DNA of 29,034 nt from an uncultured Candidatus Sumerlaeota bacterium (lineage in GTDB: Bacteria; Sumerlaeota; Sumerlaeia; MWCT01; JAGHBZ01). How positions within the stretch are numbered: the first letter of the stretch is position 1; every line of letters begins with the position of its first letter. The stretch covers positions 5,708 to 34,741 of the forward strand of contig CAYRXI010000012.1 in NCBI GenBank assembly GCA_964428255.1, given 5' to 3'. The notes below the pieces were generated by a model. It did not search any database. It was not told the DNA's origin and was given only the letters and a program-made list of their open reading frames with translations. A program made the translations under genes and the position numbers. This document shows, piece by piece, positions 1,257-16,271 of this stretch.

Positions 1257-2153
1257 ATGACAAACTTTCCACAGCATATCAGAAAAAAACTGTTATACAC
1301 CAGCGGGAAACTAAATAAGGTAAAAGATATTCTTCGTCGCTATGCGCTACATACAGTTTGTGAAAGTGCACGGTGTCCTAACAGGGCAGAATGTTTTCAT
1401 TCTGGTGTTGCCACCTTTTTGATTCTCGGAGATAGTTGTACTCGCCGGTGCAAATTCTGCGGAGTTAACAAGGGAATGCCCTCACCTGTGGACGAAACCG
1501 AAGCTGAGCGCGTAGCTCTGGCTGCAAGAGAGCTGGGTTTACAGCATATTGTCATTACTTCAGTAACTCGTGATGATCTGGAAGATGGGGGCGCGAGGGA
1601 ATTTGCACGCGCCATTCGTGCTATCCGCCGTCATCTACCAGATGCGACAGTGGAAGTCTTAACCCCGGATTTTAAAGGTTCAATCACAGCACTTCAATCG
1701 GTGCTGAGCGAAAAACCCGAGGTATTTAATCATAATCTGGAAACTGTACCGCGTCTGACACCGGAAATTCGTCCGCAGGCTGATTATCAACGCAGTCTTT
1801 GGGTGTTGCAAAAAGTGAAAGAAGTGGGAGATGGTGCCATTATAACCAAGTCTGGAATTATGGTCGGTATAGGCGAAACTGTAGATGAAGTACTTGCGGT
1901 TATGCGCGATCTACGTGCGGTAAACTGCGATGTATTGACAATTGGTCAATATATCCAGCCGGGCGCCTCACAAATTGCAGTGAAAGAATTTATCTCTCCC
2001 GAACAATTTCTTTATTATCGCAGGGAAGGATTGCAGATGGGGTTCAAAGCTGTGCTGGCAGATACATTTGTGCGGTCGTCATTTCAAAGCGGCGCCATTG
2101 TGCAACAACTTAGAAAAAGAGTTGACGCCATACCCTTATCATCTGCCATATAA
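1257..2153 (+). CDS. lipA: Lipoyl synthase (radical SAM)
   Basis: CX4CX5C (CESARCPNRAEC), CX3CX2C (CTRRCKFC), ITSVTRDDL, HNLETV, KSGIMVGIGE, TIGQY and C-terminal VRSSF. Confidence 0.97.
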   Translation: MTNFPQHIRKKLLYTSGKLNKVKDILRRYALHTVCESARCPNRAECFHSGVATFLILGDSCTRRCKFCGVNKGMPSPVDETEAERVALAARELGLQHIVITSVTRDDLEDGGAREFARAIRAIRRHLPDATVEVLTPDFKGSITALQSVLSEKPEVFNHNLETVPRLTPEIRPQADYQRSLWVLQKVKEVGDGAIITKSGIMVGIGETVDEVLAVMRDLRAVNCDVLTIGQYIQPGASQIAVKEFISPEQFLYYRREGLQMGFKAVLADTFVRSSFQSGAIVQQLRKRVDAIPLSSAI

Positions 2154-2205
2154 TAATATCATAACTTTCATATCCTAAAAAGAAAGGAGGCTGTTCAACA
2201 CATCT

Positions 2206-2454
2206 ATGTTACATGAACTTAGATTTAGCAGTGAAGATGGAGAATATCGCCGGGGAGTAGTTCAATTCTGGCATATTGATGAGAATGATGAGGTTGAAGA
2301 GGGCGATGACCTGATTGATGTGGAGACTGACGATGAATCCATATTAACCTTAAAAGCACCGGTAACCGGCAGAGTAAAACAGATATTTGTTGAGGAAGGC
2401 GATGTGGTGGAGGATGGCAGTTTACTGGCAATAATTGAAGAAAGCGAGGAATAA
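2206..2454 (+). CDS. Stand-alone biotinyl/lipoyl-fold protein, highly acidic, acceptor Lys absent
   Basis: Pattern W..DENDEVEEGDDLIDVETD...APVTGRVKQIFVEEGDVVEDGSLLAII matches lipoyl domains; strong SD AGGAGG upstream; VETDDES replaces the VETDKA motif. Confidence 0.85.
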   Translation: MLHELRFSSEDGEYRRGVVQFWHIDENDEVEEGDDLIDVETDDESILTLKAPVTGRVKQIFVEEGDVVEDGSLLAIIEESEE

Positions 2455-2456
2455 TA

Positions 2457-3383
2457 ATGTCAACCACATTAATAGTGGGCTCAGTCAACCGGGCATTAGG
2501 TGGCTCCGCCACTTACGCCGCAATAGCAGCTTCTTATTTTTCTCCCACGGTGCGCCTGGTAGGCATAGTGGGACGTGATTTTGGTCTCAAAAATATAAAC
2601 ATTTTCAAGCGGCGGGGCATTGATGTGGCTGGCTTAACTATTTCTGAACAGGGCGACACGTTCCATTGGCAGGGTGTTTATGAAGATGATATGAATCAGG
2701 CACACACTATCTCAACCTGCGTTAATGTGTTTGCTGATTTTCAACCACAGCTTCCGGAAGAATATCGTGATAGCAAATTTGTGTTTCTGGCAAATATTGA
2801 CCCTGAGCTGCAGAGCCACGTGATGAAACAAATGAAACATTCGGCACTGGTAATTTGTGATACGATGAATTACTGGATTAGTTGCAAACGCCAGGAATTA
2901 CTTCAGGTTCTCCGCAAGGCAGATGTTATTCTGCTAAATGAAGCTGAATTACGCCAGCTGGCTGAAGAGGAAAATCTCTGTCGTGCTGTACAGAAGTTTC
3001 TGCGCCTGAGAAAAGCCCGCTGGCTCATTGTGAAAAAGGGAGTACATGGCGCAGTAGTTTATAGCCACACTGACCAGTTTATAGTCCCGGCTTATCCGAC
3101 CCTTAAGGTCAAAGACCCGACAGGAGCTGGAGACACGTTTGCTGGCGGCTTCGTCAGCTGGGTAGCCTATCGCAATCGTGTGGATAGTGAAACTATTCGT
3201 CAGGCAGCAATTATCGGCTCGGCTCTGGCTTCATTTACAATAGAGGACTTCAGCATTCGCAGACTGTATCGTCTTAACTTAGAAAGTATCAGTGAACGGG
3301 TAGATTTTCTGCTGCGGATGCTTGAATGTCCGCCCATTAAATTTACGGATAAAATGCTGAGGGTACCACAGCGCAAATTATGA
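2457..3383 (+). CDS. PfkB/ribokinase-family kinase (ribokinase group C-like), with an apparent ~12-aa N-terminal deletion
   Basis: ALGGSATY, VRLVGIVG, DTMNYWI, and the PfkB signature DPTGAGDTFAGG; SD-like GAGGA upstream; start follows the previous stop after 2 nt. Confidence 0.88.
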   Translation: MSTTLIVGSVNRALGGSATYAAIAASYFSPTVRLVGIVGRDFGLKNINIFKRRGIDVAGLTISEQGDTFHWQGVYEDDMNQAHTISTCVNVFADFQPQLPEEYRDSKFVFLANIDPELQSHVMKQMKHSALVICDTMNYWISCKRQELLQVLRKADVILLNEAELRQLAEEENLCRAVQKFLRLRKARWLIVKKGVHGAVVYSHTDQFIVPAYPTLKVKDPTGAGDTFAGGFVSWVAYRNRVDSETIRQAAIIGSALASFTIEDFSIRRLYRLNLESISERVDFLLRMLECPPIKFTDKMLRVPQRKL

Positions 3384-4705
3384 AACCAGAAATAAAAGTT
3401 GGCTTAATTGGCTGGGGAAATATTGGCACGGCAGTTGTGCAATATTTTATGGAACACGGTGAATTAATAAATCACCGTGCTGGCTGTAAGGTCACCATTG
3501 CTGGAATTGCGGATATTGACCTGGAACGTCCACGTGCTGTATCTGTAGACCTCGCTATATTAACTCGTGATGCAGAGAGTCTGGTTAATGCCTCCGAGCT
3601 GGATATAATTGTAGAATTAATCGGAGGAATAGAGCCGGCTCGGACATATATTGACCAGGCTTTACGCAACAAGAAACAGGTAGTTACGGCAAACAAGGCG
3701 TTGCTGGCTGAATATGGTCCTGAATTATTAGCTCTGGCACGCGAAAATAATTGTCAGTTGCGCTTTGAAGCAAGCGTCGGAGCTGGTATTCCAATTATTC
3801 GTGTTATTCAACAAGCATTGACTGCCAATCATCTGGTAGCGATTTACGGCATTATCAATGGGACCTCTAATTACATCTTAACTGCGATGGCGCAGGAAAA
3901 AAAGGAGTTCTCCGTCGCGCTGGCTGACGCCCAGCAACGCGGTTATGCTGAACCTGACCCGAGCTTTGACATAGAAGGTATTGATACCGCGCACAAAATC
4001 GCCATTCTCGCCTCTCTGGCTTTTAATCAAGACATTCGGGTTAAAGATGTTTATGTAGAGGGTATCACTCATATTGAACAAATTGACATTAAATATGCTG
4101 ACGAATTGGGCTACGTGATAAAACTACTCGGGATTGCCAGACTGTACGAGGACAAACGGGTTTCAGTCTATGTGTATCCAACTCTCGTTCCTGACGATTC
4201 TCTGCTGGCATCGGTAAATGGTGTCTATAATGGAATTATGATTGAAGGCGTGCCAGTAGGCAAACAATTATATTATGGAGAAGGTGCGGGCAGAGGTTCA
4301 ACCACCAGTGCCGTTATTGGTGACATCATCAGTATTGCGCGCTGGCTTACTTTACCCAAAGGTCCTCAGCAATTCCTTCCGCTGTCTGAAGCTGAGGTGC
4401 CAAACATTCAAATCGGAAATAAGAACGTTAAACCGATAGAGGAACTGGAGACGCCATATTACTTCCGCTTCTCTGTGCTGGATAAAATTGGAACTATGGC
4501 ACGGCTGAGCAAAATTCTGGCTGACAATAATATCAGCATTGCTTCAATGATTCAGAAAACGATAAACCCGATGCAATATGCCACACTTATCATAGTGACC
4601 CATCGCGCTAGAGAATCCGCCGTGCGCCAGGCAGTTAAGGAGATAATCAAGCTGGACATCTGTGAGAAACCGCCACTGATGCTGAGGGTTCTGGAATCTA
4701 CGTGA
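3380..4705 (+). CDS. hom: Homoserine dehydrogenase with C-terminal ACT domain
   Basis: Rossmann GWGNIG, VVTANKA, FEASVGAGIP, INGTSNYIL, GYAEPDPSFDIEGIDTAHK, GAG..T.SAV..D; ACT-like tail (DKIGTMARLSKILADNNISIASM); ATGA overlap with the upstream gene. Confidence 0.96.
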   Translation: MKPEIKVGLIGWGNIGTAVVQYFMEHGELINHRAGCKVTIAGIADIDLERPRAVSVDLAILTRDAESLVNASELDIIVELIGGIEPARTYIDQALRNKKQVVTANKALLAEYGPELLALARENNCQLRFEASVGAGIPIIRVIQQALTANHLVAIYGIINGTSNYILTAMAQEKKEFSVALADAQQRGYAEPDPSFDIEGIDTAHKIAILASLAFNQDIRVKDVYVEGITHIEQIDIKYADELGYVIKLLGIARLYEDKRVSVYVYPTLVPDDSLLASVNGVYNGIMIEGVPVGKQLYYGEGAGRGSTTSAVIGDIISIARWLTLPKGPQQFLPLSEAEVPNIQIGNKNVKPIEELETPYYFRFSVLDKIGTMARLSKILADNNISIASMIQKTINPMQYATLIIVTHRARESAVRQAVKEIIKLDICEKPPLMLRVLEST

Positions 4706-5968: not shown

Positions 5969-6411
5969 AATCTTTAATTAAACTCTTACAGATTGGTTTA
6001 TTAGTATTGCTGGTGGGATGTTCCGCATCACAAATACATCCCCTGACGGACAAAAAATTTCCTGCGAAGCCAGCTACTGAAGAAATTGACCTGTATATGG
6101 GAAAGGTTGAACGTCCACATCTTGAAATCGCCATAATTGACTCACGCTCACTCCCTGGCAGGGAAGATAAAGATAAGCAACTCCAATTAAACGACCTAAA
6201 AAGAATGGCGCGAAAATTAGGGGCTGATGCGGTTCACGACATTCGGTTATTAAATAAGAAAGCCCGGGGTATGGTAATTGACGAGCGAGTGCCTTTTCCC
6301 GCCTGGAAGCAAGGTGAATATAAATTATATTTCCTGCGTGGCACGGCTATTAAATTTATTGCGGACGAGGACCTGGAAACACCCGCAACACGCACGACGA
6401 CTTCGCCTTAA
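5965..6411 (+). CDS. Lipoprotein, YbjQ/UPF0145-like fold
   Basis: Signal II peptide MKSLIKLLQIGLLVLLVGC (lipobox LVGC); LKRMARKLGADAV...RGTAIKF pattern; ATGA overlap with the radical SAM stop. Confidence 0.75.
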   Translation: MKSLIKLLQIGLLVLLVGCSASQIHPLTDKKFPAKPATEEIDLYMGKVERPHLEIAIIDSRSLPGREDKDKQLQLNDLKRMARKLGADAVHDIRLLNKKARGMVIDERVPFPAWKQGEYKLYFLRGTAIKFIADEDLETPATRTTTSP

Positions 6412-6437: not shown

Positions 6438-7347
6438 ATGAGATATACCCCTCTTGGACAACGTGGACCAGTGGTCTCCACCGTAGGTTTCGGTGCCTGG
6501 GCAATTGGAGGGATAAACTGGGGCAAGACAGACGATGAAATATCCAAACGTGCCCTGCATAAAGCCCTTGATCTCGGTGTAACTTTTATTGACACCGCAG
6601 ACGTCTATGGATTTGGTCATTCCGAAGAACTGATTGCGCAGGTATTGAAAGAGCGAGGTGGTACAGGAAATGTCATTATTGCCACTAAAGCAGGAAATGA
6701 CTTTTATAACGTTTCTCCACAAGACGACCGGGGTTACGGACCCATAAAACAGAATTACAATAAAGACTACATCATTTTTGCAGTAGAACAAAGCCTTAAA
6801 CGGCTTCAGATAGATGTCATAGACCTCTTGCAATTGCATAGTGGCGATACCGAGAATTTGCAACGGGATGACCCCTGGGAAGCACTGGAACTTCTGAAAC
6901 GGCAGGGGAAAATCAAATACGCGGGCTGGAGTGTGCAATCCTTTAATTCAGGTTCGGTACAACTTGCTGGAACGCAGTGCAGAACAATCATTATTTCCCC
7001 GTGCGCAAAAATACGGCATAGGTGTTATTATCCGCATCCCACTCCTTTTTGGCTTATTAACCGGAAAATTTAATCGCTCCACCCGTTTCACAGAAGACGA
7101 CCACCGGCGTTTCAATCTTTCTCCGGAAAAACTGGACAAATACCTGCAGCAGTTAGAAACGCTGAAACCACTATTTGAACGTTATCCTGACCAGACAATG
7201 ACCCAGGTGAGTTTACGCTTTTGTCTCTCGCATCCAGCCTGTCACACCGTTATCCCCGGCGCAAAAACTCCCGAACAGGTTATAGAAAATTGTTCTGCTT
7301 CAGACCTCGGTCCAATTCCGCCAGAATATATACCGCCACTAAATTAA
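6438..7347 (+). pseudogene. Aldo/keto reductase split into two frames near 6945 (deletion plus frameshift)
   Basis: The 5' frame has GFGAWAIGG, FIDTADVYGFGHSE, ATKAG, SLKRLQIDVIDLLQLH, GKIKYAGWSV. The 3' frame (+1) resumes IQVRYNLLER, RIPLLFGLLTG, VIPGAK. The usual segment between WSV and IQ.RYN is largely missing. Confidence 0.85.
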
Positions 7348-7460: not shown

Positions 7461-8894
7461 TTATTCTCCTGAAGATATAGCTTTTAGGGGAATAGTAAAC
7501 GTAAAGGTGGAGCCAGAACCAATTTGACTATGTACCGTAATTTTCCCCCCGTGTGCTTCAACGATTTGCTTCGCTATTGCCAGCCCCAGACCGGTACTTT
7601 TTTCTCCCGCAGTTGGGCGGACACTCGTTTTGGTAAACATATCAAACAACATATCAATTTCTTCGGGTAAAATCCCCGGTCCTTGATCCTGCACTGCTAT
7701 TTCTACATACTCTCCAGCTGTTCGGGCTTTTAACTTAATCGTGGTGCCTGGTTGTGAGAATTTTAACGCATTCGTGAGAAGATTATTAAGTACCTGAGTG
7801 ATACGCTCAGCATCCATTATTACGACTGGCAGAGATGGCTCCAACTCCAGTTCTAAGGAGATGTTCTTCGTCTTTGCGATAATTATGTTCGTCTCGTAAT
7901 ATTCTTTGAGGAATTTAGCCAAATCTACCGACTTCGGCTCAAGTACAAGTCTGCCTGAGGCAATAGCACTTACATCCAGCAGGTCATCAATCAAAGTAAG
8001 CATAGTCTCGCAGGACTTGTTCATTGTTAATAGATATGGACGTTGTGATTCAGGTACATCGCCGACAAATCTTCCCAGAATCAAACCCAGAAAACCCTTG
8101 ATAACCCCGATAGGATGTCTGAGGTCATGAGCCACTATCCCGAGAAATCTATTTTTAATCTGATTAAGCTCTGCCAGCTCCTGATATAGACGTCCTTTTT
8201 CCACAATTAAAGCCAGCTGTGTAGCAATTTTTTGAAAAATCCCCACATGCACATTTTGGTAAGTAGCTGGTTTCATACTGGAGAAAAACATAAAACCGAT
8301 AGGTTTACCTTTGATAATTAAGGGACAGGTGAGGCTGGAGCGTATTCCTTCAGCCACAATACGGCGAGTGGATTCTGAATCTGGATGTTGCCGGAGATAT
8401 TCTTCTAAGTCGTTTAAAATACGGGGTTGCCCGGTTTTTGTGATTGTCTCCAGACTGCTTCCCTTGAGTGGGGCTGAATAGCCGGGAGTAATCAGCATTT
8501 GTGGCGCCATGGAGCGCCCCCAGCGAGTATTCACCATACCGTTATCATCAATTAACGCTAAGCCGATTCGGTCGTATGGTATTATTTGATGAAATGAGTC
8601 ATAAATCAGGTCCAGAATTTCATCCAGCGTGTGCCCAGCATTTATCTCTTCGGTAATTCGCGCCAGGGTTTCGGCTTCATCAAATTTTTGTTTTAATGTT
8701 AATCCGAGTTCTTGAATAGCCTGCCCCAGACGCGCAAGCGTCTCGTCCTCACTCCGCGGTAATTCACCATCAAACTGGAAATTCTTAAGTTTCTCTATTG
8801 CCTTAATATATTCAGCCAGTCCTGTGTCAGTAGAGATGTCCTTTTTTTTGCTATGCCTTGTTATTTTTTTTGATTTCTGGACTTTCTTTAGCAT
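7461..8894 (-). CDS. Soluble sensor histidine kinase (HAMP-like segment - GAF - HisKA - HATPase_c)
   Basis: GAF ([21 protein letters not shown]), H-box VAHDLRHP, N-box [10 protein letters not shown]1 DQGPGI, G2 GLGLAI; no transmembrane segment. Confidence 0.93.
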
Positions 8895-9586: not shown

Positions 9587-10951
9587 TTATGGGGTGTTAG
9601 GTTTTATGGCGTAATACCTTATCATAACCACCAGGTCATCCGTTGCAGGATTCCCCTTACTAAAAATTCTGTCAGGTCCACAGCTGATTAACTTGCCATA
9701 TACATTGCCGGAAACTTCACTTTTACCTACAACATAGCGAATAGGTGAATCCCAGCGGTCTCTGGGAGGAATCTCACCGCGGTAATACGGACCTTTCCAG
9801 CCTCCAACGCCGGGATTTTCCGACAGCACTTTAAATCCTTGCTCTTCGGTGGGTATCGTACCAGTGTCTTTATAGTATTCTTCAAAAATACTTGCCAGGC
9901 GTTCCAGTTTCTTCGTTTCTGCTTCAATTATATTATGTTCACGTGCTTCCATCTCCAGACGATAAGTCTGTGCCAAAGGTGCCACAATTGCACCACTGGC
10001 TGGTGAAACGAGCCCCAGACTTTCTACCTTCTGTGCGAATTGGTCCCAGTAATCCCATTCCGCGCGTTCTCGCGGGTCCGCGGGTCGTGGAGGAGAAATC
10101 TGCCCCTGACGCGTGACTACTACTTCGGTCAACGTGGGTATTTCTACTTTCTCCTGGGTGAGGTTACTGATGGTTTCGACTTTGCCCTCAAAGACTGCTA
10201 CTCGTGAACCATCCTGCTCGCTAATTGCAATTTTAAATAATGTGCCGCGCACACCTGCTGTTAAGTCTGGAGTTGTTACCTGATAATTAACCAACCCGCC
10301 GCCCGGTGTTATTTTATTCCACACCGCACCACCTTTAAGTTCCAGCGTGATGTTATTGCCATCTGGAGAGACACTTTTTAAAATCAAGTGCGAGTTTGGC
10401 GGTAAGCGAACTTCACCTCTACCACGGATGCTGATTTTAACCCTACCGTCGCCATTAAGAATCTCATCGCCCACTTTAAGTTGCATATCGTCCTGGGCTT
10501 TAATCCATTCGCCAGCAGCTGAGCGCCGTATTTTTACGTCATCTACCACTCCAAATAACACCGCATCATACCCGGGCTGGATAGACGGGGGAGGCTGAGG
10601 AGTGGGAGTTGGTCCTGCCGGCACCTGGGAGGTGGCGACCTGTGGTGATTGTCCTGCTAATTTCTCTGTTTTATTTTGCTCCTGAGAAGCGGTAGTTTGC
10701 AGCCCGGCATCTGCCTCTTTATCCCCTCCTTTTGTTTGCTTATCATTATAAGAAACGCGCTTAATTTTTAACTTATCAAACTCTAATTTACCATACTGCT
10801 CGGTTTGTATGATAATCTTTTCCTTGCTTTCTTTCAAAATGTTACCCGTGATTTTCTGTCCATCAAGGAGCTCTATTTCATCAGCTCTTGTAATGAGCAT
10901 CAGGGAAAGCAACAGCGCAAAACTCAGCCAGAATATGTTATGCCGAAACAT
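9587..10951 (-). CDS. Secreted/periplasmic protein: small N-terminal beta domain + Pro-rich linker + FecR domain + C-terminal GspG (T2SSG) pseudopilin head domain
   Basis: Signal I peptide MFRHNIFWLSFALLLSLMLITRA|DE; FecR motif TTPDLTAGVRGTLFKI...VAVFEGKV; GspG motif YYKDTGTIPTEEQGFKVLSENP...WKGPY...PRDRWDSPIRY...SCGPD. Start placed at 10951 because a promoter lies inside the ORF-track extension to 11128. Confidence 0.85.
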   Translation of the reverse strand: MFRHNIFWLSFALLLSLMLITRADEIELLDGQKITGNILKESKEKIIIQTEQYGKLEFDKLKIKRVSYNDKQTKGGDKEADAGLQTTASQEQNKTEKLAGQSPQVATSQVPAGPTPTPQPPPSIQPGYDAVLFGVVDDVKIRRSAAGEWIKAQDDMQLKVGDEILNGDGRVKISIRGRGEVRLPPNSHLILKSVSPDGNNITLELKGGAVWNKITPGGGLVNYQVTTPDLTAGVRGTLFKIAISEQDGSRVAVFEGKVETISNLTQEKVEIPTLTEVVVTRQGQISPPRPADPRERAEWDYWDQFAQKVESLGLVSPASGAIVAPLAQTYRLEMEAREHNIIEAETKKLERLASIFEEYYKDTGTIPTEEQGFKVLSENPGVGGWKGPYYRGEIPPRDRWDSPIRYVVGKSEVSGNVYGKLISCGPDRIFSKGNPATDDLVVMIRYYAIKPNTP

Positions 10952-10987
10952 TCCATCTTTACTACAGGTCTGAAATTCTATAAAATT

Positions 10988-11016
10988 AGGATATATCGGT
11001 TGTCTGGTAAAGTCAA
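10988..11016 (-). promoter_or_regulatory. Sigma70-type promoter for the FecR-GspG gene
   Basis: Minus strand TTGACT-N17-TATCCT, 36 nt upstream of the ATG at 10951. Confidence 0.6.
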
Positions 11017-11292
11017 CACACCTATCTCTAACAAATATTTTACTCACTAATGTTTTTTTAAAACTCAAAAACATCAAAAGAATTTTTTCTACGATGTGGA
11101 ATAAGTTCAGTATAAGCAAGTGATGCATTATAGCTCTGAATAAAAGGTCATACGGGACGCAGGCGATTAGTGTGACAAAGGGAAAAGGTCTGGTGGAACA
11201 ATTGATAAATTAAAGATAATCAAAGGCATAAAGTATCTGAAAAAATCCTGCGAGAATAATTAGTATTGTCTTTTTAATCTTTTGCTGACGGC

Positions 11293-12468
11293 TTATTTCT
11301 CGCCGATTACACGAACGAGATTCCAGTATGGTAATAATAAGCCCAGAGCGATGAAAATCACCACAAAACCTAAAAAGACTATCAATAGTGGTTCAATTAA
11401 GGCGGTCAAGCCCTTGAGGCTGGCATCCACATCTGTTTCATAAACATCTGCGATTTTATTTAGCATCATATCAAGTGCGCCTGCTTCATCACCTATGGCA
11501 ATCATATCCACCACCAGCGGAGGAAATACCGGGTTTTTACGCAAAGGCTCATCCATTTTTCCCCCGCGTTCCACATTATCATGAGTTTGCTTGATAGCTT
11601 CTGCTACCACCACATTTTCCGCGGTTCGGAAGGCTACATTTAAGACTTCCAGCAGAGGTATCCCGGCTGCTAGTAGCCCGCCAGCAGTGCGGGTAAAACG
11701 CGCAACATTTATCTTAACGTTTATCGGTCCCATAATGGGGAGTTTTAACTTAAGCCAATCATACATCCGTCTTCCCACCGGAGTCCGCCCATAGGCAATC
11801 AATAACACAATTGCAACCACAAGCAGAGGCACATAGATTAATGGATAATCCTGAACAAAATGAGACACAGCCAGAATGATACGTGTGACTCCCGGTAATT
11901 GTGCAGCCTGTTCCTTATATACCTGCTCAAAGCGGGGAATAGCTACCACTAACATTAAGATAATTATACCTATAGACATCAGTAAAGCTGCTACTGGATA
12001 GGCTACGGCAGAGAAGATTTTTTTCTTGATGTCTGCCTTTTTCTCCAGAATATCTGCCAGGCGTTTGAGTGAACTCTCCAGAATACCGCCGACTTCTCCG
12101 ACTTTTACCACGTTAACAAACAATGGAGAAAACACTCTGGGAAACTTTGCCAGAGCGGAGCTGAGGCTTTGTCCTTCTTCCACACTTTTTGCCACTTCCC
12201 CGACTACTTTTTTCAGGCGCGGATGCTGGGTACGCTCACTGAGTATTTTTAAACTCCGTAAGAGCGGGATGCCCACATCCAAAAGTGTTGCCAGCTGGCG
12301 GCAAAAGGTTGCCATATCCCGAATATTAGGTGGCAACAAGCCTAACTCACGAGTAAACACTGAGGGTTGCGGAGTGCGTGCCGGGGCTGTATCACGGGGC
12401 GGCTCTATTTTTATTACCGGCTGCGCCTCCTCTCCCGGTTTACTTATTTTCTTCTCGTCAGCTACCAT
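11293..12468 (-). CDS. pilC: Type II secretion system F family / type IV pilus platform protein (GspF/PilC)
   Basis: FCRQLATLLDVGIPLLRSL, GEVGGILESSLKRLAD, AYP + TM, ARFTRT..GLLAAGIPL, IGDEAGALDMMLNKIAD, LIEP + TM. Confidence 0.93.
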   Translation of the reverse strand: MVADEKKISKPGEEAQPVIKIEPPRDTAPARTPQPSVFTRELGLLPPNIRDMATFCRQLATLLDVGIPLLRSLKILSERTQHPRLKKVVGEVAKSVEEGQSLSSALAKFPRVFSPLFVNVVKVGEVGGILESSLKRLADILEKKADIKKKIFSAVAYPVAALLMSIGIIILMLVVAIPRFEQVYKEQAAQLPGVTRIILAVSHFVQDYPLIYVPLLVVAIVLLIAYGRTPVGRRMYDWLKLKLPIMGPINVKINVARFTRTAGGLLAAGIPLLEVLNVAFRTAENVVVAEAIKQTHDNVERGGKMDEPLRKNPVFPPLVVDMIAIGDEAGALDMMLNKIADVYETDVDASLKGLTALIEPLLIVFLGFVVIFIALGLLLPYWNLVRVIGEK

Positions 12469-12502
12469 AGTTTATGCTCCCTTTCTTCCAAGTTTAAATT
12501 TT

Positions 12503-14758
12503 CTATACTAAACTAATGTTTTCCAAAACCTCTTCTACAGTGGTAATTCCTTCAAAAATCTTTTTAATTCCACTCTGCATTAAACTGCTCATTCCTTTTT
12601 TCACTGCGGTATCAAAAATCTTTTGTTCACTTGAATGTTTTATAATTAAATTCCGAATCTCATCATCCACTTGTAATATTTCAAACACCCCGATTCTCCC
12701 GTAATATCCAGTCTGTAAACAGTAATCACAGCCCGCGCCTCTATACATTTCGCGTTCGGTGGTCGCTGGTAAGCCCAGCGCTTGAAAGACAGCTTTTTCT
12801 GGCTTATAAGCCACCTTACATTTGGGGCAAATCTGCCGCACAAGCCTTTGAGCTACAATCCCGATTACTGCACTGGCAATTAAATATGGGGCAATACCCA
12901 TTTGAATAAGTGGAGCAAAAGCACTAGCTGTTGTATTGGCATGGAGAGTGCTAAAAACGAGATGCCCGGTTAACGCGGCACGGATTGCGATTCTGGCAGT
13001 TTCATCATCGCGAATCTCACCTACCAGTATCACATCCGGATCCTGGCGCAGAATAGACCTTAGCCCGTTAGCAAAAGTAAGGTCAATGTTGTAATCCACC
13101 TGCACCTGGTTAATTCCATCTAACTGATATTCTACAGGGTCTTCAATGGTCACTATATTGCGGTCAATCCTGTTAATTAAATTTAAGGCTGAATATAAGG
13201 TGGTAGTTTTGCCACTGCCAGTCGGTCCGGTAACCAGAATCATTCCGTAGGGCTTCCGAATAAGAGATTCCATTATGGCTTGCTGTTCTTTATCCAGACC
13301 GAGCTCTGCCAAGCCCTTCAACACCGTGCTCTTTTCTAAGATTCTCATCACGATTTTCTCGCCCAAATTGGTCGGCAGCGAAGAGACCCGAAAATCAAAA
13401 TATTTCTCCTCCAGATTAAGTCCAATATGCCCGTCTTGAGGCCTACGGCGCTCGGTAACGTCCATATTTGCAAGCACTTTAATCCGGCTAATTACTGAGA
13501 GTTGAACGTCACGGGGGATGTGCATAATGTTATGTAATTTGCCATCAATCCGATAACGCACCCGCAGACCTTCCCGTAATGGCTCTAAATGTATGTCTGT
13601 TGCCCGAGTGGCTATAGCCGTTTCTATCAATGAATTCACCAGCTGCACTGTTGACTGGCTGTCCACCAGAGTGCGGATCCGCCGAAGCTGAGGTTCCCCT
13701 ACCACTACACCGTCTCTGCTCGTTCCCGTAGCAGAAGTAGATACTTCAGCGGGCTTCACAGCTTGCCTGGCTTCAACCGCAGGAGCAACTGTCATTCTTC
13801 TAACAGACTGTGATTCTTCAGCCGTTCGCGATGCTGGTTCTGCGATTTTTTCTTCTCTCAAAATCAGGTTAATTTTATTGATAATCTCTTCTTGCAAGGC
13901 AAAATACGGCAATACATACTTACCTGTAATTAATGAAATCGTGTCAGAGAGTGTGAGAAGTAAGGGGTCTGGCATAGCTGCTAATATTTGCTTATCCGTG
14001 ATCAGAAGCAGTAAGAATAGCTCACGACGTAAAAAGCTGGTCGGGATTTTAGCAAGTAACTCGCGGGAGACTGGGGTTTCTCGTAGATTGACCGTGGGGA
14101 GATACAAGCCTTTTGCCACCAGTTCCAGCAGTTCGGTTGAACCAAGTTTACTTTTAGCTGCCCAGATTTTACTAATCTCCTCTCCGGTAGTTTCACTCTC
14201 TGCCAGAATTTCCTGCACCAGGTTTTTATCTATCAATTTATTATACTCCAGAATCTCCAGTGCCAGTCGGAGCCTGTTCTGGCGCGAAAATTTGTTGTTT
14301 CCCTTTTCCACAACTTTGGCAATCATCTCAGGTGTAATAAGCTCCCGCTCTAAAAGCACATTATAGGCAGTGTCGCCCAGACGGCTTACGATATCTCTGG
14401 CTTCGGCGTATTCTTCTTCAGTCAGGATTTTATTCTGCCATAAAATTTCCACCAGTGTCTTAGCGTCTGGTCTATGAGTATTGAGTAATGACTGTAATTC
14501 TTGATATGACAGTTGTACCTCTTTACCGAGTGCCAGCTGAATCTCCTGGCGTTGTGGTTTACTTACAAAGGGGATTTTAATAATCTCATAGGTGAGTAAT
14601 TCTTTGTAAGTTTTCAGGCTTAGCGCATCCGAGGTCAGGATTTTACCAAAGCTTTTCCCCTCGCTGACAAATTGCTTTTGTGCTTTTTGCCAGTCTGCCT
14701 CGTTTATCAAGCCAGCTTCTTTAAATAATCCGGCTAATCTGATGCTTGAGTCTTTCAT
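12503..14758 (-). CDS. pilB: GspE/PilB-family extension ATPase with extended N-terminal region
   Basis: ATDIHLEP, RRPQDG, Walker A GPTGSGKT, TIEDPVE, LRQDPDVILVGEIRD, LTGHLVFSTLH, tetracysteine CPKC...CDYC. GspE and PilB cannot be distinguished from motifs alone. Confidence 0.93.
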   Translation of the reverse strand: MKDSSIRLAGLFKEAGLINEADWQKAQKQFVSEGKSFGKILTSDALSLKTYKELLTYEIIKIPFVSKPQRQEIQLALGKEVQLSYQELQSLLNTHRPDAKTLVEILWQNKILTEEEYAEARDIVSRLGDTAYNVLLERELITPEMIAKVVEKGNNKFSRQNRLRLALEILEYNKLIDKNLVQEILAESETTGEEISKIWAAKSKLGSTELLELVAKGLYLPTVNLRETPVSRELLAKIPTSFLRRELFLLLLITDKQILAAMPDPLLLTLSDTISLITGKYVLPYFALQEEIINKINLILREEKIAEPASRTAEESQSVRRMTVAPAVEARQAVKPAEVSTSATGTSRDGVVVGEPQLRRIRTLVDSQSTVQLVNSLIETAIATRATDIHLEPLREGLRVRYRIDGKLHNIMHIPRDVQLSVISRIKVLANMDVTERRRPQDGHIGLNLEEKYFDFRVSSLPTNLGEKIVMRILEKSTVLKGLAELGLDKEQQAIMESLIRKPYGMILVTGPTGSGKTTTLYSALNLINRIDRNIVTIEDPVEYQLDGINQVQVDYNIDLTFANGLRSILRQDPDVILVGEIRDDETARIAIRAALTGHLVFSTLHANTTASAFAPLIQMGIAPYLIASAVIGIVAQRLVRQICPKCKVAYKPEKAVFQALGLPATTEREMYRGAGCDYCLQTGYYGRIGVFEILQVDDEIRNLIIKHSSEQKIFDTAVKKGMSSLMQSGIKKIFEGITTVEEVLENISLV

Positions 14759-14776
14759 CTCACTATTTGCCAGTAG

Positions 14777-15226
14777 CTAAAATTTTTGCGAGAGCAAAAT
14801 ATCTACTCTGCGCTTTGTCTTCAAATTAGTTAAATAGGTCCTTTCTAATTTATAACTATCTTCGCCCACCCTGTATTCCACCTCAACCACCGCTTTGACA
14901 TCACCTTCCTGATAATTAATACCGGCTCTACTATATAGCTCATTACTCTCGGCAATTGGCTCTGCGCGCACATATAAAATCACGTCCGGCAATTTATAAT
15001 TTCTGCCTGTAACGTTAGTTAATACTTGCTGATGAAGCTCCCGTTTTAATTTTGCCAGCCCGCTGTCTGCAAATGAATCGAGTTTGGTACGAATTACGTT
15101 GAGACTCAAACGGTCATACAACGCACTGGAAGTAAGGGCAACTGTGCCAATCATAATAAACATCACTGCCAGCACTCCCAGTGCAGCAATCAAGGCAAAC
15201 CCACGCTTTTCGTGAATATCTCTCAT
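14777..15226 (-). CDS. GspK/PilX-like minor (pseudo)pilin
   Basis: Class III signal KRG|FALIAALGVLAVMFIMIG with a hydrophobic residue instead of Glu at +5, diagnostic of GspK/PilX; much shorter than typical GspK. Confidence 0.75.
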   Translation of the reverse strand: MRDIHEKRGFALIAALGVLAVMFIMIGTVALTSSALYDRLSLNVIRTKLDSFADSGLAKLKRELHQQVLTNVTGRNYKLPDVILYVRAEPIAESNELYSRAGINYQEGDVKAVVEVEYRVGEDSYKLERTYLTNLKTKRRVDILLSQKF

Positions 15227-15237
15227 TGTATTCTTCC

Positions 15238-15861
15238 TTATTTTATTAATCGCATCGCCGAAGTTAATACCAATGGCTTTACCAATCCCTCTTTATCGCT
15301 TACCACTATTTTCCATCTAATTAACACCGGCGACTGAGTCTCTGTCAGTTCAGGGACCCATCTTGCCTCTAAATTATTAAATTCTCTGGCATAGGCAAAT
15401 TCTATTGTGGTGCTGATCTTGGCTTCTTTTGAACCAAGAATAATGGATTCGTCAGGAAGAACAGAGGTTGCAGTAGCTGGTTTATCTATTAACATCACTC
15501 TATTCTCATCGCCACTTTCAGACTTCACATTTTTAAAGGTGGCTAATCGTAACTCAGGGGTTTGACCGGGTAACATCCAGAAGAGAGTAAGAGTATTATC
15601 TTTAAACTCCGGCTTACCAATAGCTGTTTTCACTCTTTCAGAGGGGATATAACCTGCCAGCATCTGCTCCAGCTTTTGGGCAATTAACGTGGCTTCCTGT
15701 AGCATTATAGCTTCTATATTCCTCTTTTTTGCTGCAGTATTAGTAGCAATAAAGATTTCCAGCAGCAGACCCAGAATCATCCCGCCAATCACCAGCACAG
15801 CTAAGATCTCAATTAAAGTAACAGCTCTAATCTTGCGAATATTTTGGGTATTCCACTTCAT
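15238..15861 (-). CDS. GspJ/PilW-like minor (pseudo)pilin
   Basis: Basic leader then RA|VTLIEILAVLVIGGMILG (Glu at +5; Ala rather than Gly at -1). Confidence 0.75.
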   Translation of the reverse strand: MKWNTQNIRKIRAVTLIEILAVLVIGGMILGLLLEIFIATNTAAKKRNIEAIMLQEATLIAQKLEQMLAGYIPSERVKTAIGKPEFKDNTLTLFWMLPGQTPELRLATFKNVKSESGDENRVMLIDKPATATSVLPDESIILGSKEAKISTTIEFAYAREFNNLEARWVPELTETQSPVLIRWKIVVSDKEGLVKPLVLTSAMRLIK

Positions 15862-15863
15862 AA

Positions 15864-16271
15864 TTATTCCTCACCGGCTATGACATATGCGGTTAATTTA
15901 ACCGCAGAATTCGAAAAATTTTTACGGGCTACTGTGACTTCCAGCCGTAATGTATCACTGGTCTCCTGGTTCAGCCCCCATTGCCATTCAAATTGAGGGC
16001 TCTCAGGCAAAGTTGCAGGCGAGATAACAAAGTCCCCTGCGCGTTGTTTAAAATAAGTAAATAGCTTATCGGGACCTGCTGCTTGCAGTTCAGCCATTTT
16101 GCCCCGCGCTAAATACAAAGACTGTGTCCTAAAGACCGCACGTTCACCCAGTCGTTGCGAGGTAAAATACAAATCCAGTAAGGCATAGAGTCCAAATATC
16201 AACACCACGAGTGCAATAAGCACTTCTATGTAAGTAATACCTGCAATTTTATTTGTCTGTCTTTTTGTCAT
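15864..16271 (-). CDS. GspI/PilV-like minor (pseudo)pilin
   Basis: AG|ITYIEVLIALVVLIFG class III signal; 135 aa; later A..LAR.KMAEL and LEVTV patterns typical of PilV/GspI. Confidence 0.8.
   Translation of the reverse strand: MTKRQTNKIAGITYIEVLIALVVLIFGLYALLDLYFTSQRLGERAVFRTQSLYLARGKMAELQAAGPDKLFTYFKQRAGDFVISPATLPESPQFEWQWGLNQETSDTLRLEVTVARKNFSNSAVKLTAYVIAGEE

What the first reader, a model, noticed from the sequence alone, without database searches (positions are those of the whole stretch)
2206..2454. Stand-alone lipoyl domain next to lipBA lacks the lipoylation lysine
Seen in the sequence: an 82-aa, very acidic lipoyl-fold gene with a strong SD lies 52 nt after lipA. At the beta-turn the DNA reads GAG ACT GAC GAT GAA TCC (ETDDES), and 8 residues separate ETD from AP. 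Established: E2-type lipoyl domains carry ETDKA with 7 residues to AP, and that Lys is what LipB octanoylates and LipA sulfurates. The protein's only two Lys (LKAP, VKQI) are outside the turn. Inference: this is not a carrier but may be an unmodifiable mimic (competitive inhibitor, adaptor or chaperone) regulating LipB/LipA, or a fold reused for another partner.
Basis: partly seen in the sequence, partly recalled or inferred. Interest (0 to 1): 0.7.

Follow-up and report, generated by a model that had tools for sequence, protein, structure and literature searches.

The report
Lysine-less lipoyl domain partnered with lipA
A small, very acidic protein with the fold that normally carries the lipoic-acid cofactor, but without the lysine the cofactor attaches to, is encoded right behind the lipoic-acid synthase gene; the pairing is kept in several bacterial phyla, so it is probably an undescribed helper or regulator of that enzyme rather than a decayed gene.

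Summary
Window 2206-2454 (+) encodes an 82-aa lipoyl-fold protein (PF00364; AF2 pLDDT 90; TM 0.87 to E2 lipoyl domains). Its beta-turn reads D42-D43-E44-S45 in place of DKA and is one residue longer. It is not an error or decay. Ten relatives down to 51% identity keep an acidic, lysine-free turn. Its non-synonymous divergence is lower than that of its neighbour genes, while synonymous sites are saturated. Close relatives keep lipA-X-pfkB-hom. The window (Candidatus Sumerlaeia) belongs to a large family of very acidic single-domain lipoyl(-like) proteins encoded directly after lipA or lipB in Omnitrophota, Planctomycetota, Hydrogenedentota, Verrucomicrobiota, Bacillota and Chloroflexota. Most members keep TDK[AS]. 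The lysine changed state at least three times, and 9 of 10 distinct lysine-less types with enough upstream DNA still sit directly behind an intact lipA. In lysine-less members the turn and the adjacent beta1-beta2 loop lose conservation, and the rest of the domain does not. The most likely reading is inferred, not shown: a non-acylatable carrier paralogue that docks on LipA as a regulatory or protective partner. No paper describing this was found. Interest is moderate to high; it is a new variant of a known kind.

The parts
2206..2454 (+). Gene for the 82-aa stand-alone, Lys-less lipoyl-fold protein (LD)
   Evidence: The ORF is listed. PF00364 scores 46.4 bits. The AF2 model has pLDDT 89.8. 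Foldseek gives TMq 0.86-0.88 and rmsd 1.4 A to E2 lipoyl domains. Homologues are 51-98% identical. Against L003, pN is 0.085 with pS 0.75.
2323..2340 (+). Codons E40-T41-D42-D43-E44-S45: an acidic beta-turn replacing ETDKA, one residue longer
   Evidence: The sequence was read. In the alignments the lipoyl-Lys column falls on D43. The model's turn is residues 42-45. The turn stays Lys-free and acidic in the clade: ETDDES, ETEDDT, ETEDES, EADDES.
2377..2379 (+). K58 codon: the only Lys invariant within the ETDDES clade, located in a strand and not at the turn
   Evidence: See the alignment and strand 55-60 of the model. This position is variable in other subfamilies.
2186..2190 (+). GGAGG ribosome-binding motif, 15 nt upstream of the ATG
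   Evidence: It is read directly from the sequence, and the spacing is longer than optimal.
1257..2153 (+). lipA (lipoyl synthase), the conserved upstream partner gene
   Evidence: TIGR00510 scores 351.6 bits against a cut-off of 310.25. CX4CX5C lies at 1359-1394, CX3CX2C at 1437-1460 and RSSF at 2073-2084. RSS[YF] is an allowed variant (PMC13232139).
482..1153 (+). lipB (octanoyltransferase), first gene of the co-oriented run
   Evidence: TIGR00214 scores 128.1 bits against a cut-off of 83.55. PF21948 is matched. The conserved Lys (GKIGFIG, 902-922) and Cys (APCG, 1001-1012) are present.
2457..4705 (+). pfkB-family kinase (2457-3383, starts 2 nt after the LD stop) and homoserine dehydrogenase (3380-4705, 4-nt overlap). 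These are co-oriented downstream genes, linked to the LD only in this clade and in L100.
   Evidence: Pfam matches are. Synteny is seen in L001, L003, L073 and L100. No terminator-like site lies in the intergenic gaps.

Best explanation
The gene encodes a genuine, maintained lipoyl-fold protein that cannot be lipoylated. It is the Sumerlaeia representative of a widespread family of very acidic, single-domain lipoyl(-like) proteins whose genes sit directly behind lipA (or lipB).

In most members the TDK[AS] lysine is intact, and they are presumably dedicated LipB/LipA acceptors. In several lineages, including this one, the lysine was lost while the lipA linkage and the rest of the domain stayed under selection.

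The most likely mechanism is a pseudo-carrier. The Lys-less protein still docks electrostatically on the basic carrier-binding face of LipA, and perhaps of LipB. It is made together with LipA and modulates or protects this oxygen-labile, self-sacrificing enzyme. It could do so by occupying the docking site when no octanoylated acceptor is present, or by pacing turnover relative to Fe-S cluster repair.

Shown: the fold, the absence of an acylatable turn residue, conservation, purifying selection, the recurrent loss of Lys, the linkage to lipA, and one metatranscriptome contig spanning the lipA-LD junction.

Inferred: physical binding to LipA or LipB, and any effect on their activity.
For: - Fold and missing Lys.
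- Selection: against L003, pN of the LD is 0.085, compared with 0.15-0.22 for pfkB, hom and rSAM, while pS is about 0.75 and saturated.
- Linkage to lipA: among distinct stand-alone LDs with at least 1.2 kb upstream, 9 of 10 Lys-less types have lipA directly upstream on the same strand, from an 8-nt overlap to a 224-nt gap. These types are ETDDES, RTEEGD, RTENGE, IVEGNA, STEDG, STEEG, IVESE, IVDST and QTDRA. Of the Lys-bearing ones, 23 of 36 have lipA or lipB directly upstream. Other neighbours differ.
- The partner enzyme looks functional: all adjacent LipAs inspected keep both cluster motifs and RSS[YF] (the motif script printed nothing for the RSS site of L031/L033, but their sequences carry RSSY).
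- Repeated loss: Fitch parsimony on the LipA NJ tree gives 4 changes between Lys and Lys-less. In 100 bootstrap replicates the count ranged 3-6 and was never below 3.
- Where constraint is lost: in the Lys-less group, entropy rises only at the turn and strand 5 (positions 41-50), the beta1-beta2 loop (8-12) and positions 20-21. Positions 26-36 and 57-59 stay equally or more conserved.
- Charge: LD about -20, LipA pI 8.95. The human LIAS/H-protein interface is charge-charge, with the carrier negative (PMC12246082).
- Expression: a metatranscriptome contig covers 2063-2407, from the lipA 3' end into the LD gene.
- Real acceptors probably exist elsewhere in the genome: Sumerlaeota MAGs are reported to carry pdh as well as por (PMC8092238).
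- Precedent in the same superfamily: plant BADC proteins are BCCP homologues that cannot be biotinylated and inhibit ACCase (bioRxiv 10.1101/634550).
Against: - No direct evidence of binding exists. Complex modelling could not be run.
- No natural LipA-LD fusion appeared among 268 fetched proteins. None appeared among the 120 best of 8000 candidates scored with a LipA+LD profile, where a fusion would have ranked first.
- LipA is reported to recognise its substrate mainly through the octanoyl chain (PMC13232139), and LipB binds its protein partner weakly (PMC9307952 abstract). A domain without an acyl chain may therefore bind poorly.
- One Lys-less type (NTSSG, L099) is not next to lipA.
- Gene order alone cannot separate 'acts on LipA' from 'inherited position of a former substrate gene now doing something else'.
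- The metatranscriptome contig could derive from DNA carry-over.
Confidence: 0.4

Rival explanations
1. The fold has been reused for a partner outside LipA/LipB. The Lys-less domain might serve as an adaptor or subunit for another lipoate-related or unrelated enzyme, such as E3, E1 or the pfkB/hom products. In that case it keeps its place behind lipA only for historical or co-expression reasons.
For: The end of the domain that faces lipoylating enzymes and E1 (the turn plus the beta1-beta2 loop) is exactly what lost conservation, while other surfaces are kept. In L101 a TIGR01350-passing dihydrolipoyl dehydrogenase directly precedes lipA-LD. lipA-LD-pfkB-hom is kept in two distant lineages. 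Barrel-sandwich domains serve as interaction modules in many systems, as the weak HlyD and NqrA Pfam hits show.
Against: The only neighbour common to nearly all Lys-less types is lipA. E3, pfkB and hom are each limited to one or two lineages. Short gaps or overlaps with lipA (8-nt overlap) suggest stoichiometric co-production with LipA.
Confidence: 0.2
2. It is an acidic metal or Fe-S-repair helper. In this reading the extreme negative charge serves to bind iron or to recruit Fe-S carriers that rebuild LipA's sacrificed auxiliary cluster, in the manner of frataxin.
For: The net charge is -20 or more negative across most of the family. In L100 the pair lies directly after sufBD-rhodanese-NifU-Rieske-FeS_assembly_P. 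LipA destroys its auxiliary cluster at each turnover and needs carriers such as NfuA (PMC13232139).
Against: The suf context is seen in one lineage only. There are no conserved Cys or His ligands in the window protein. Lys-bearing members are just as acidic.
Confidence: 0.1
3. It is still a carrier, modified at a non-canonical site such as K58 (invariant in this clade) or a carboxylate.
For: K58 is invariant in all 11 members of the ETDDES clade and variable elsewhere. The acidic turn is itself conserved within the clade.
Against: K58 lies inside strand 55-60 of the model, not at a protruding turn. Lipoylating enzymes need the Lys at the tip of the turn; this is established knowledge from lipoyl-domain mutagenesis and was not tested here. 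Other Lys-less subfamilies have no Lys at this position. No ligase of another type is a conserved neighbour.
Confidence: 0.07
4. It is a relic: a former LipB/LipA acceptor that lost its lysine and is decaying. Alternatively, it is a sequencing or assembly error.
For: The window does carry two probable lesions elsewhere: a split aldo/keto reductase, and an 11-codon deletion in pfkB relative to close relatives.
Against: pN is lower than in the neighbouring enzymes while pS is saturated. The same Lys-free turn is found in independent assemblies from several samples. The ORF is intact and of constant length in all relatives. Lys-less forms persist in several phyla.
Confidence: 0.03

Closest known systems
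Lipoyl domains of 2-oxoacid dehydrogenase E2 subunits (PF00364; e.g. PDB 1LAB, 1GHJ, 2L5T, 3CRK chain C)
   Same: The fold is the same flattened beta-barrel (TMq 0.86-0.88, rmsd 1.4 A). It shares the W22, the GD and EEGD turns and the AP-x-x-G motifs. It is acidic.
   Different: The window protein is stand-alone rather than part of an E2 chain. It has no Lys at the turn (DDES, one residue longer) and no PxLGE-type beta1-beta2 loop. Its negative charge is about twice as large. Its gene is tied to lipA rather than to E1/E3 genes.
lipA/lipB-adjacent stand-alone acidic lipoyl domains with TDK[AS]/TSKA (Omnitrophota, Planctomycetota, Hydrogenedentota, Peptococcaceae; annotated only as 'biotin/lipoyl-binding protein' or 'lipoyl domain-containing protein')
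   Same: They share the size, the acidity and the gene position directly after lipA or lipB. They are 35-48% identical to the window protein.
   Different: They keep the lysine and a highly conserved TDK[AS]TFNVP[AS]P turn and strand, and the PxLGE loop. They can plausibly be lipoylated. No NCBIfam model reaches its curated cut-off for the window protein, and no paper on this family was found.
Plant BADC proteins (BCCP paralogues that cannot be biotinylated)
   Same: They belong to the same biotinyl/lipoyl superfamily, are carrier paralogues that lost the modifiable residue, and were retained by selection. They act as non-catalytic partners and inhibitors of the enzyme that uses the real carrier (bioRxiv 10.1101/634550).
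   Different: They work with a different cofactor system (biotin/ACCase) and are eukaryotic. Their binding and inhibition are shown experimentally; nothing comparable has been shown for the window protein.
Single-domain biotin/lipoyl attachment protein BLAP of Bacillus subtilis (PDB 1Z6H)
   Same: It is a stand-alone domain of about 70-80 aa with the same fold. It gives a weak sequence match (E 0.0043).
   Different: BLAP has the modifiable Lys. The match is much weaker than to E2 lipoyl domains. No lipA linkage is known to me for BLAP; that is from memory and was not tested.
GcvH / LbpA lipoate-binding proteins
   Same: They are small, acidic, stand-alone proteins that interact with lipoate-assembly enzymes. 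H protein docks on lipoyl synthase by charge-charge contacts (PMC12246082).
   Different: They belong to a different family (the H-protein fold, which has extra helices), they carry the Lys, and they gave no sequence match here.

Membership tests
Biotin_lipoyl domain superfamily (PF00364) | Profile score above Pfam's gathering threshold | tested here: met
   The score is 46.4 bits against 22.1, over residues 13-77 and profile positions 10-73 of 73.
Biotin_lipoyl domain superfamily (PF00364) | Flattened beta-barrel of two four-stranded sheets | tested here: met
   The AF2 model has pLDDT 89.8 and seven DSSP strand segments (the N-terminal part of the domain scores lowest). Foldseek's best matches are E2 lipoyl domains with TMq 0.86-0.88.
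Functional lipoyl carrier (substrate of LipB/LplA and LipA) | Lys at the tip of the beta4-beta5 turn (DKA/DKS-type motif) | tested here: not met
   The turn is D42-D43-E44-S45 and the Lys column is D43. The same holds in 10 relatives.
Functional lipoyl carrier (substrate of LipB/LplA and LipA) | Conserved beta1-beta2 surface loop next to the turn (PxLGE-type in the lipA-linked family) | tested here: not met
   The window reads F7-S-S-E-D-G-E13. This loop is conserved in Lys-bearing members (P 0.94, L 0.79, E 0.81) and not in Lys-less ones.
Functional lipoyl carrier (substrate of LipB/LplA and LipA) | Protein is octanoylated or lipoylated in vivo or in vitro | not testable with these tools
   This needs intact-mass spectrometry or anti-lipoate blots.
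   The window protein is 82 aa with charge -20. Relatives range from -14 to -43.
   The window gene lies 52 nt after lipA. The same arrangement holds for 9 of 10 Lys-less and 23 of 36 Lys-bearing distinct loci.
Curated NCBIfam small carrier families (NF005239 PRK06748; NF004547 biotin/lipoyl-binding carrier protein) | Score above the curated cut-off | tested here: not met
   The scores are 30.7 against 111 and 29.7 against 75 bits.
Pseudo-carrier regulators (BADC-like; functional analogy, not homology-defined) | Carrier paralogue lacking the modifiable Lys yet under purifying selection | tested here: met
Pseudo-carrier regulators (BADC-like; functional analogy, not homology-defined) | Binds the cognate enzyme and alters its activity | not testable with these tools
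No fusion proteins were found.

The most novel reading that the evidence does not exclude
The lipA-adjacent acidic lipoyl-like proteins, with or without the lysine, are a previously unrecognised accessory subunit of bacterial lipoyl synthase. In the Lys-less lineages the protein has become a pure LipA partner. It would gate access to the active site and/or assist rebuilding of the sacrificial auxiliary [4Fe-4S] cluster, so that LipA in these phyla works as a two-protein enzyme.
Probability: 0.15. Interest if true: 0.8.

Novelty: new variant of a known kind. Interest (0 to 1): 0.62.

Why it matters
Lipoyl synthase consumes its own Fe-S cluster at every turnover. How cells pace and protect it is still being worked out; only the Fe-S carriers NfuA, IscU and NFU1 are known helpers.

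A conserved, selectively maintained, non-acylatable copy of its substrate domain is encoded with lipA in several mostly uncultured phyla, and the lysine was lost at least three times. This points to a protein-level partner or regulator that has not been described in the literature searched here.

The proteins are small and easy to express, so the idea can be tested directly. The finding also affects annotation. These genes are currently labelled 'E2 component' or 'biotin/lipoyl-binding protein', and they would be counted wrongly as lipoate acceptors in metabolic reconstructions.

Tried and rejected
- **LipA-LD complex model.** I built paired LipA-linker-LD sequences from 20 syntenic loci (A4).
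- **Rosetta-stone test.** No protein with both radical-SAM and RSSY motifs was found among the 268 fetched proteins. A search with the LipA+LD profile returned only 277-321-aa lipoyl synthases in the top 120. This is negative but limited to 8000 word-sharing candidates.
- **Literature.** Five searches and targeted reading found nothing on Lys-less or stand-alone lipoyl domains next to lipA.
- **Second lipoyl or H-protein gene in the window.** There is none (HMM of A1 against the six-frame translation).
- **RNA elements and terminators.** There are no Rfam matches in the window, and no terminator-like site lies between lipB and the end of the gene run.
- **Taxon names for related loci.** The cluster look-ups mostly returned none. 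The window's own assignment rests on a member of the 90%-identity homoserine-dehydrogenase cluster and an 85%-identical LipA, both named Candidatus Sumerlaeia.
- **Sequencing error or decay.** Rejected.
- **RSSF in LipA as a sign of an aberrant enzyme.** Rejected; it is an allowed variant.
- **P0005.** This is a 128-aa relative whose C-terminal tail looked to me like the end of a diaminopimelate decarboxylase. Pfam did not confirm that, so I make no claim about it.

Full report
**1. The observation**

Window 2206-2454 (+) is an 82-aa ORF that begins 52 nt after the stop of lipA (1257-2153). lipB lies before lipA at 482-1153. The identity of the flanking genes is solid:
- LipB passes TIGR00214 (128 against 83.6 bits).
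- LipA passes TIGR00510 (352 against 310 bits).
- LipA carries CX4CX5C, CX3CX2C and RSSF. RSS[Y/F] is a documented variant (PMC13232139).

The small protein matches PF00364 at 46.4 bits against a cut-off of 22.1. Alignments to solved E2 lipoyl domains, and MAFFT alignments anchored with E. coli SucB and B. stearothermophilus E2p domains, put the lipoyl-lysine column on D43 with a one-residue insertion.

An AlphaFold2 model built on 121 sequences has pLDDT 89.8. Its strands are 35-41 and 46-50 and its turn is 42-45. K50 closes a strand and K58 lies inside strand 55-60. Foldseek's best matches are E2 lipoyl domains, with TMq 0.86-0.88 and rmsd 1.4 A.

The protein has 26 acidic and 6 basic residues, a net charge of about -20. 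That is twice the charge of canonical lipoyl domains.

One detail needs correcting. The GGAGG lies 15 nt before the ATG, which is long for a Shine-Dalgarno spacing. The start codon is nevertheless corroborated by homologues that begin at the same Met.

**2. Not an error and not decay**

Ten relatives from independent assemblies, 98% down to 51% identical, all have a lysine-free acidic turn: ETDDES, ETEDDT, ETEDES or EADDES.

Against the relative in L003, synonymous sites are saturated (pS 0.75). The non-synonymous difference is only 0.085. For the same genome pair it is 0.17 in the pfkB kinase, 0.15 in homoserine dehydrogenase and 0.22 in the radical-SAM/SPASM gene.

The order lipA-LD-pfkB-hom-rSAM is kept in L001, L003 and L073/L074. 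lipB is seen upstream wherever the contig reaches far enough.

One metatranscriptome contig from a hot-spring sample spans 2063-2407, from the 3' end of lipA into the LD gene. None of its differences falls in the turn codons. This suggests co-transcription, with the caveat that DNA carry-over is possible.

The organism is a member of Candidatus Sumerlaeia. A member of the 90%-identity homoserine-dehydrogenase cluster and an 85%-identical LipA both carry that name.

**3. The wider family**

An exhaustive HMMER search of 1.84 billion representatives and a profile search show that the window protein belongs to a large set of stand-alone, very acidic proteins of 75-140 aa with this fold. In genome and metagenome loci and in contigs looked up by exact protein, these genes lie directly behind lipA. 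In Peptococcaceae and Chloroflexota they lie behind lipB. They are on the same strand, from an 8-nt overlap to a few hundred nt apart.

I counted distinct proteins with at least 1.2 kb of upstream DNA:
- 23 of 36 lysine-bearing proteins are directly behind lipA or lipB.
- 9 of 10 lysine-less proteins are directly behind lipA.

The script scored L102 as unlinked only because its gene overlaps lipA by 8 nt; one search shows the adjacency. The other neighbours differ from lineage to lineage, so the conserved unit is the pair lipA-LD. E2 proteins recovered by the same scans do not show this adjacency.

Most members carry a highly conserved TDK[AS]TFNVP[AS]P. They occur in Omnitrophota, Planctomycetota including Kuenenia, and Hydrogenedentota; Peptococcaceae have TSKA. 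The lysine-less types are:
- ETDDES (this clade);
- RTE[ED]G[DG] with long acidic tails (Verrucomicrobiota);
- STE[ED]G and IVEGNA (Omnitrophota);
- IVESE, IVDST and VDNE;
- QTDRA, TDSA and TDDA;
- QLTNGA;
- NTSSG.

Only NTSSG (L099) was found away from lipA. The adjacent LipAs inspected keep both cluster motifs and RSS[YF] (L031/L033 RSSY is visible).

**4. The lysine was lost repeatedly**

I built an NJ tree of the adjacent LipA proteins with a Streptomyces outgroup. Fitch parsimony needs four changes between the lysine and lysine-less states. In 100 bootstrap replicates the number was 3 (7 replicates), 4 (65), 5 (26) or 6 (2), and never fewer than three. The subfamilies also differ in indel state and in turn sequence, which agrees with independent events.

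There are caveats. NJ on one protein is a rough tree, and the inference assumes that the gene pair is inherited together.

**5. Where the constraint lies**

I compared 48 lysine-bearing and 83 lysine-less short proteins column by column. The lysine-less group loses conservation at three places:
- the turn and the following strand (positions 41-50);
- the beta1-beta2 loop (positions 8-12, PxLGE in lysine-bearing members);
- positions 20-21.

From established work on E2 lipoyl domains, the turn and the beta1-beta2 loop lie next to each other and form the end of the domain that meets the modifying enzymes and E1. That is my own knowledge and was not tested here.

Positions 26-36 (E-G-D-x-V-E-E-G-D-D-L) and 57-59 are as conserved or more conserved in the lysine-less group. 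So the 'business end' of a carrier has been released from its old constraint, while the body of the domain has not.

Within each lysine-less clade the turn is conserved again, and it is usually acidic. The lysine column is D or E in 55 of 83 sequences and R in only 3. K58 is invariant within the ETDDES clade only.

**6. Mechanism**

What is shown: an intact, selectively maintained, probably co-transcribed lipoyl-fold protein that has no acylatable residue at the turn, and whose gene is tied to an apparently functional lipA.

What is inferred: that it still docks on LipA, and possibly LipB, as a pseudo-carrier that modulates or protects the enzyme.

Points in favour:
- The lipA linkage persists after several independent lysine changes (at least three).
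- The short gaps or overlaps are typical of proteins made together.
- The charges are complementary, LD -20 against LipA pI 8.95. This matches the charge-charge interface seen between human lipoyl synthase and H protein (PMC12246082).
- Sumerlaeota MAGs are reported to have both pyruvate:ferredoxin oxidoreductase and a pyruvate dehydrogenase (PMC8092238). Genuine acceptors therefore probably exist elsewhere in the genome, and lipoylation demand would vary with oxygen.
- There is a precedent in the same superfamily. Plant BADC proteins are BCCP homologues that cannot be biotinylated and inhibit acetyl-CoA carboxylase (bioRxiv 10.1101/634550).

Points against:
- LipA is reported to recognise its substrate mainly through the acyl chain (PMC13232139).
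- No LipA-LD fusion was found.
- I could not model the complex.

I put this explanation at 0.4. The broader statement, that this is a functional, non-lipoylatable, lipA-linked paralogue of a lipoyl carrier, I would put near 0.85.

**7. Rival explanations**

- **Reuse of the fold for another partner (0.2).** It would explain why the enzyme-facing end lost constraint. It is hinted at by a bona fide dihydrolipoyl dehydrogenase directly before lipA-LD in L101, and by lipA-LD-pfkB-hom in two distant lineages. But only lipA is common to nearly all the types.
- **An iron or Fe-S-repair helper (0.1).** It is suggested by the extreme acidity and by the suf genes before lipA-LD in L100. That context is seen in one lineage only, and no conserved metal ligands are evident.
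- **Non-canonical modification, for example at K58 (0.07).** This is unlikely, because K58 lies within a strand.
- **Relic or error (0.03).** This is contradicted.

**8. Comparison with known systems**

By fold and profile the protein is a member of the biotinyl/lipoyl domain superfamily. It fails the defining feature of a lipoyl carrier, the turn lysine, and should not be annotated as one. Sources currently call relatives 'E2 component' or 'biotin/lipoyl-binding protein'.

No curated NCBIfam model reaches its cut-off. No paper in the searched library describes lysine-less or stand-alone lipoyl domains next to lipA.

I classify it as a new variant of a known kind. It is worth an experiment because the proteins are small and the predictions are simple.

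Noticed in passing
window 2457-3383 (around 2484): The pfkB-family kinase lacks 33 nt (11 codons) near its N-terminus. Two close relatives' assemblies carry those bases at this point, and the L001 homologue is 320 aa against 308 aa here. This is an in-frame deletion or an assembly difference in a conserved part of the kinase.
   Followed up: partly
window 6438-7073 and 6931-7347: The aldo/keto reductase is split into two overlapping ORFs, matching Pfam profile positions 2-149 and 160-281. The relative in L001 has a single 320-aa gene. This is a frameshift: either a pseudogene or a sequencing error.
   Followed up: partly
window 2457-4705; L100:4326-7636: A pfkB-family kinase directly precedes homoserine dehydrogenase, with overlapping or adjacent coding. 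This holds both here and in the distant L100 (about 45% identity), where a PALP enzyme follows. No NCBIfam kinase model comes near its cut-off. The kinase may belong to the homoserine/threonine pathway, but this was not tested.
   Followed up: partly
L101:1829-4288: A dihydrolipoyl dehydrogenase that passes TIGR01350 (436.5 against 408.8 bits) overlaps the start of lipA. lipA is followed by a lysine-less lipoyl-like gene (turn IVDST). This gives an E3-lipA-LD module without a lipoylatable LD.
   Followed up: partly
L100:1-4240: sufBD, rhodanese, NifU_N, Rieske and FeS_assembly_P genes lie directly upstream of lipA and a lysine-less LD (turn QTDRA). Fe-S assembly genes and lipoyl synthase therefore sit in one co-oriented run.
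   Followed up: no
window 2073-2084: LipA has RSSF instead of the usual RSSY, while its closest relatives in L003 and L073 have RSSY. A 2026 preprint lists Phe as an allowed variant at this position.
   Followed up: yes
L007, L010, L012-L022 (about 6190-6222); L008:5172-5588: The lysine-bearing Omnitrophota proteins end in a conserved EEEE[AS]LFEEEE tail. The lysine-less Verrucomicrobiota proteins have 40-60-residue acidic tails ending in ESFADDDEL. An aromatic residue set in an acidic tail looks like a docking motif.
   Followed up: no
window 9587-16271 (- strand): This is a type II secretion/pilus-like cluster. It holds a T2SSE ATPase with an MshEN domain (12503-14758), T2SSF (11293-12468), a 513-aa FecR plus T2SSG-domain protein (9587-11128), and three ORFs without Pfam matches (14777-16271).
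   Followed up: no
window 23480-27919: This is a 1479-aa sensor histidine kinase with at least six PAS domains and a GAF domain. A second GAF histidine kinase lies at 7461-8894 (- strand).
   Followed up: no
P0005 (128 aa, from the representative search): This lysine-less relative (turn ETEDES) carries a 50-residue C-terminal extension unrelated to the family. Pfam finds nothing in the extension. It may be a chimeric or frameshifted gene call.
   Followed up: partly
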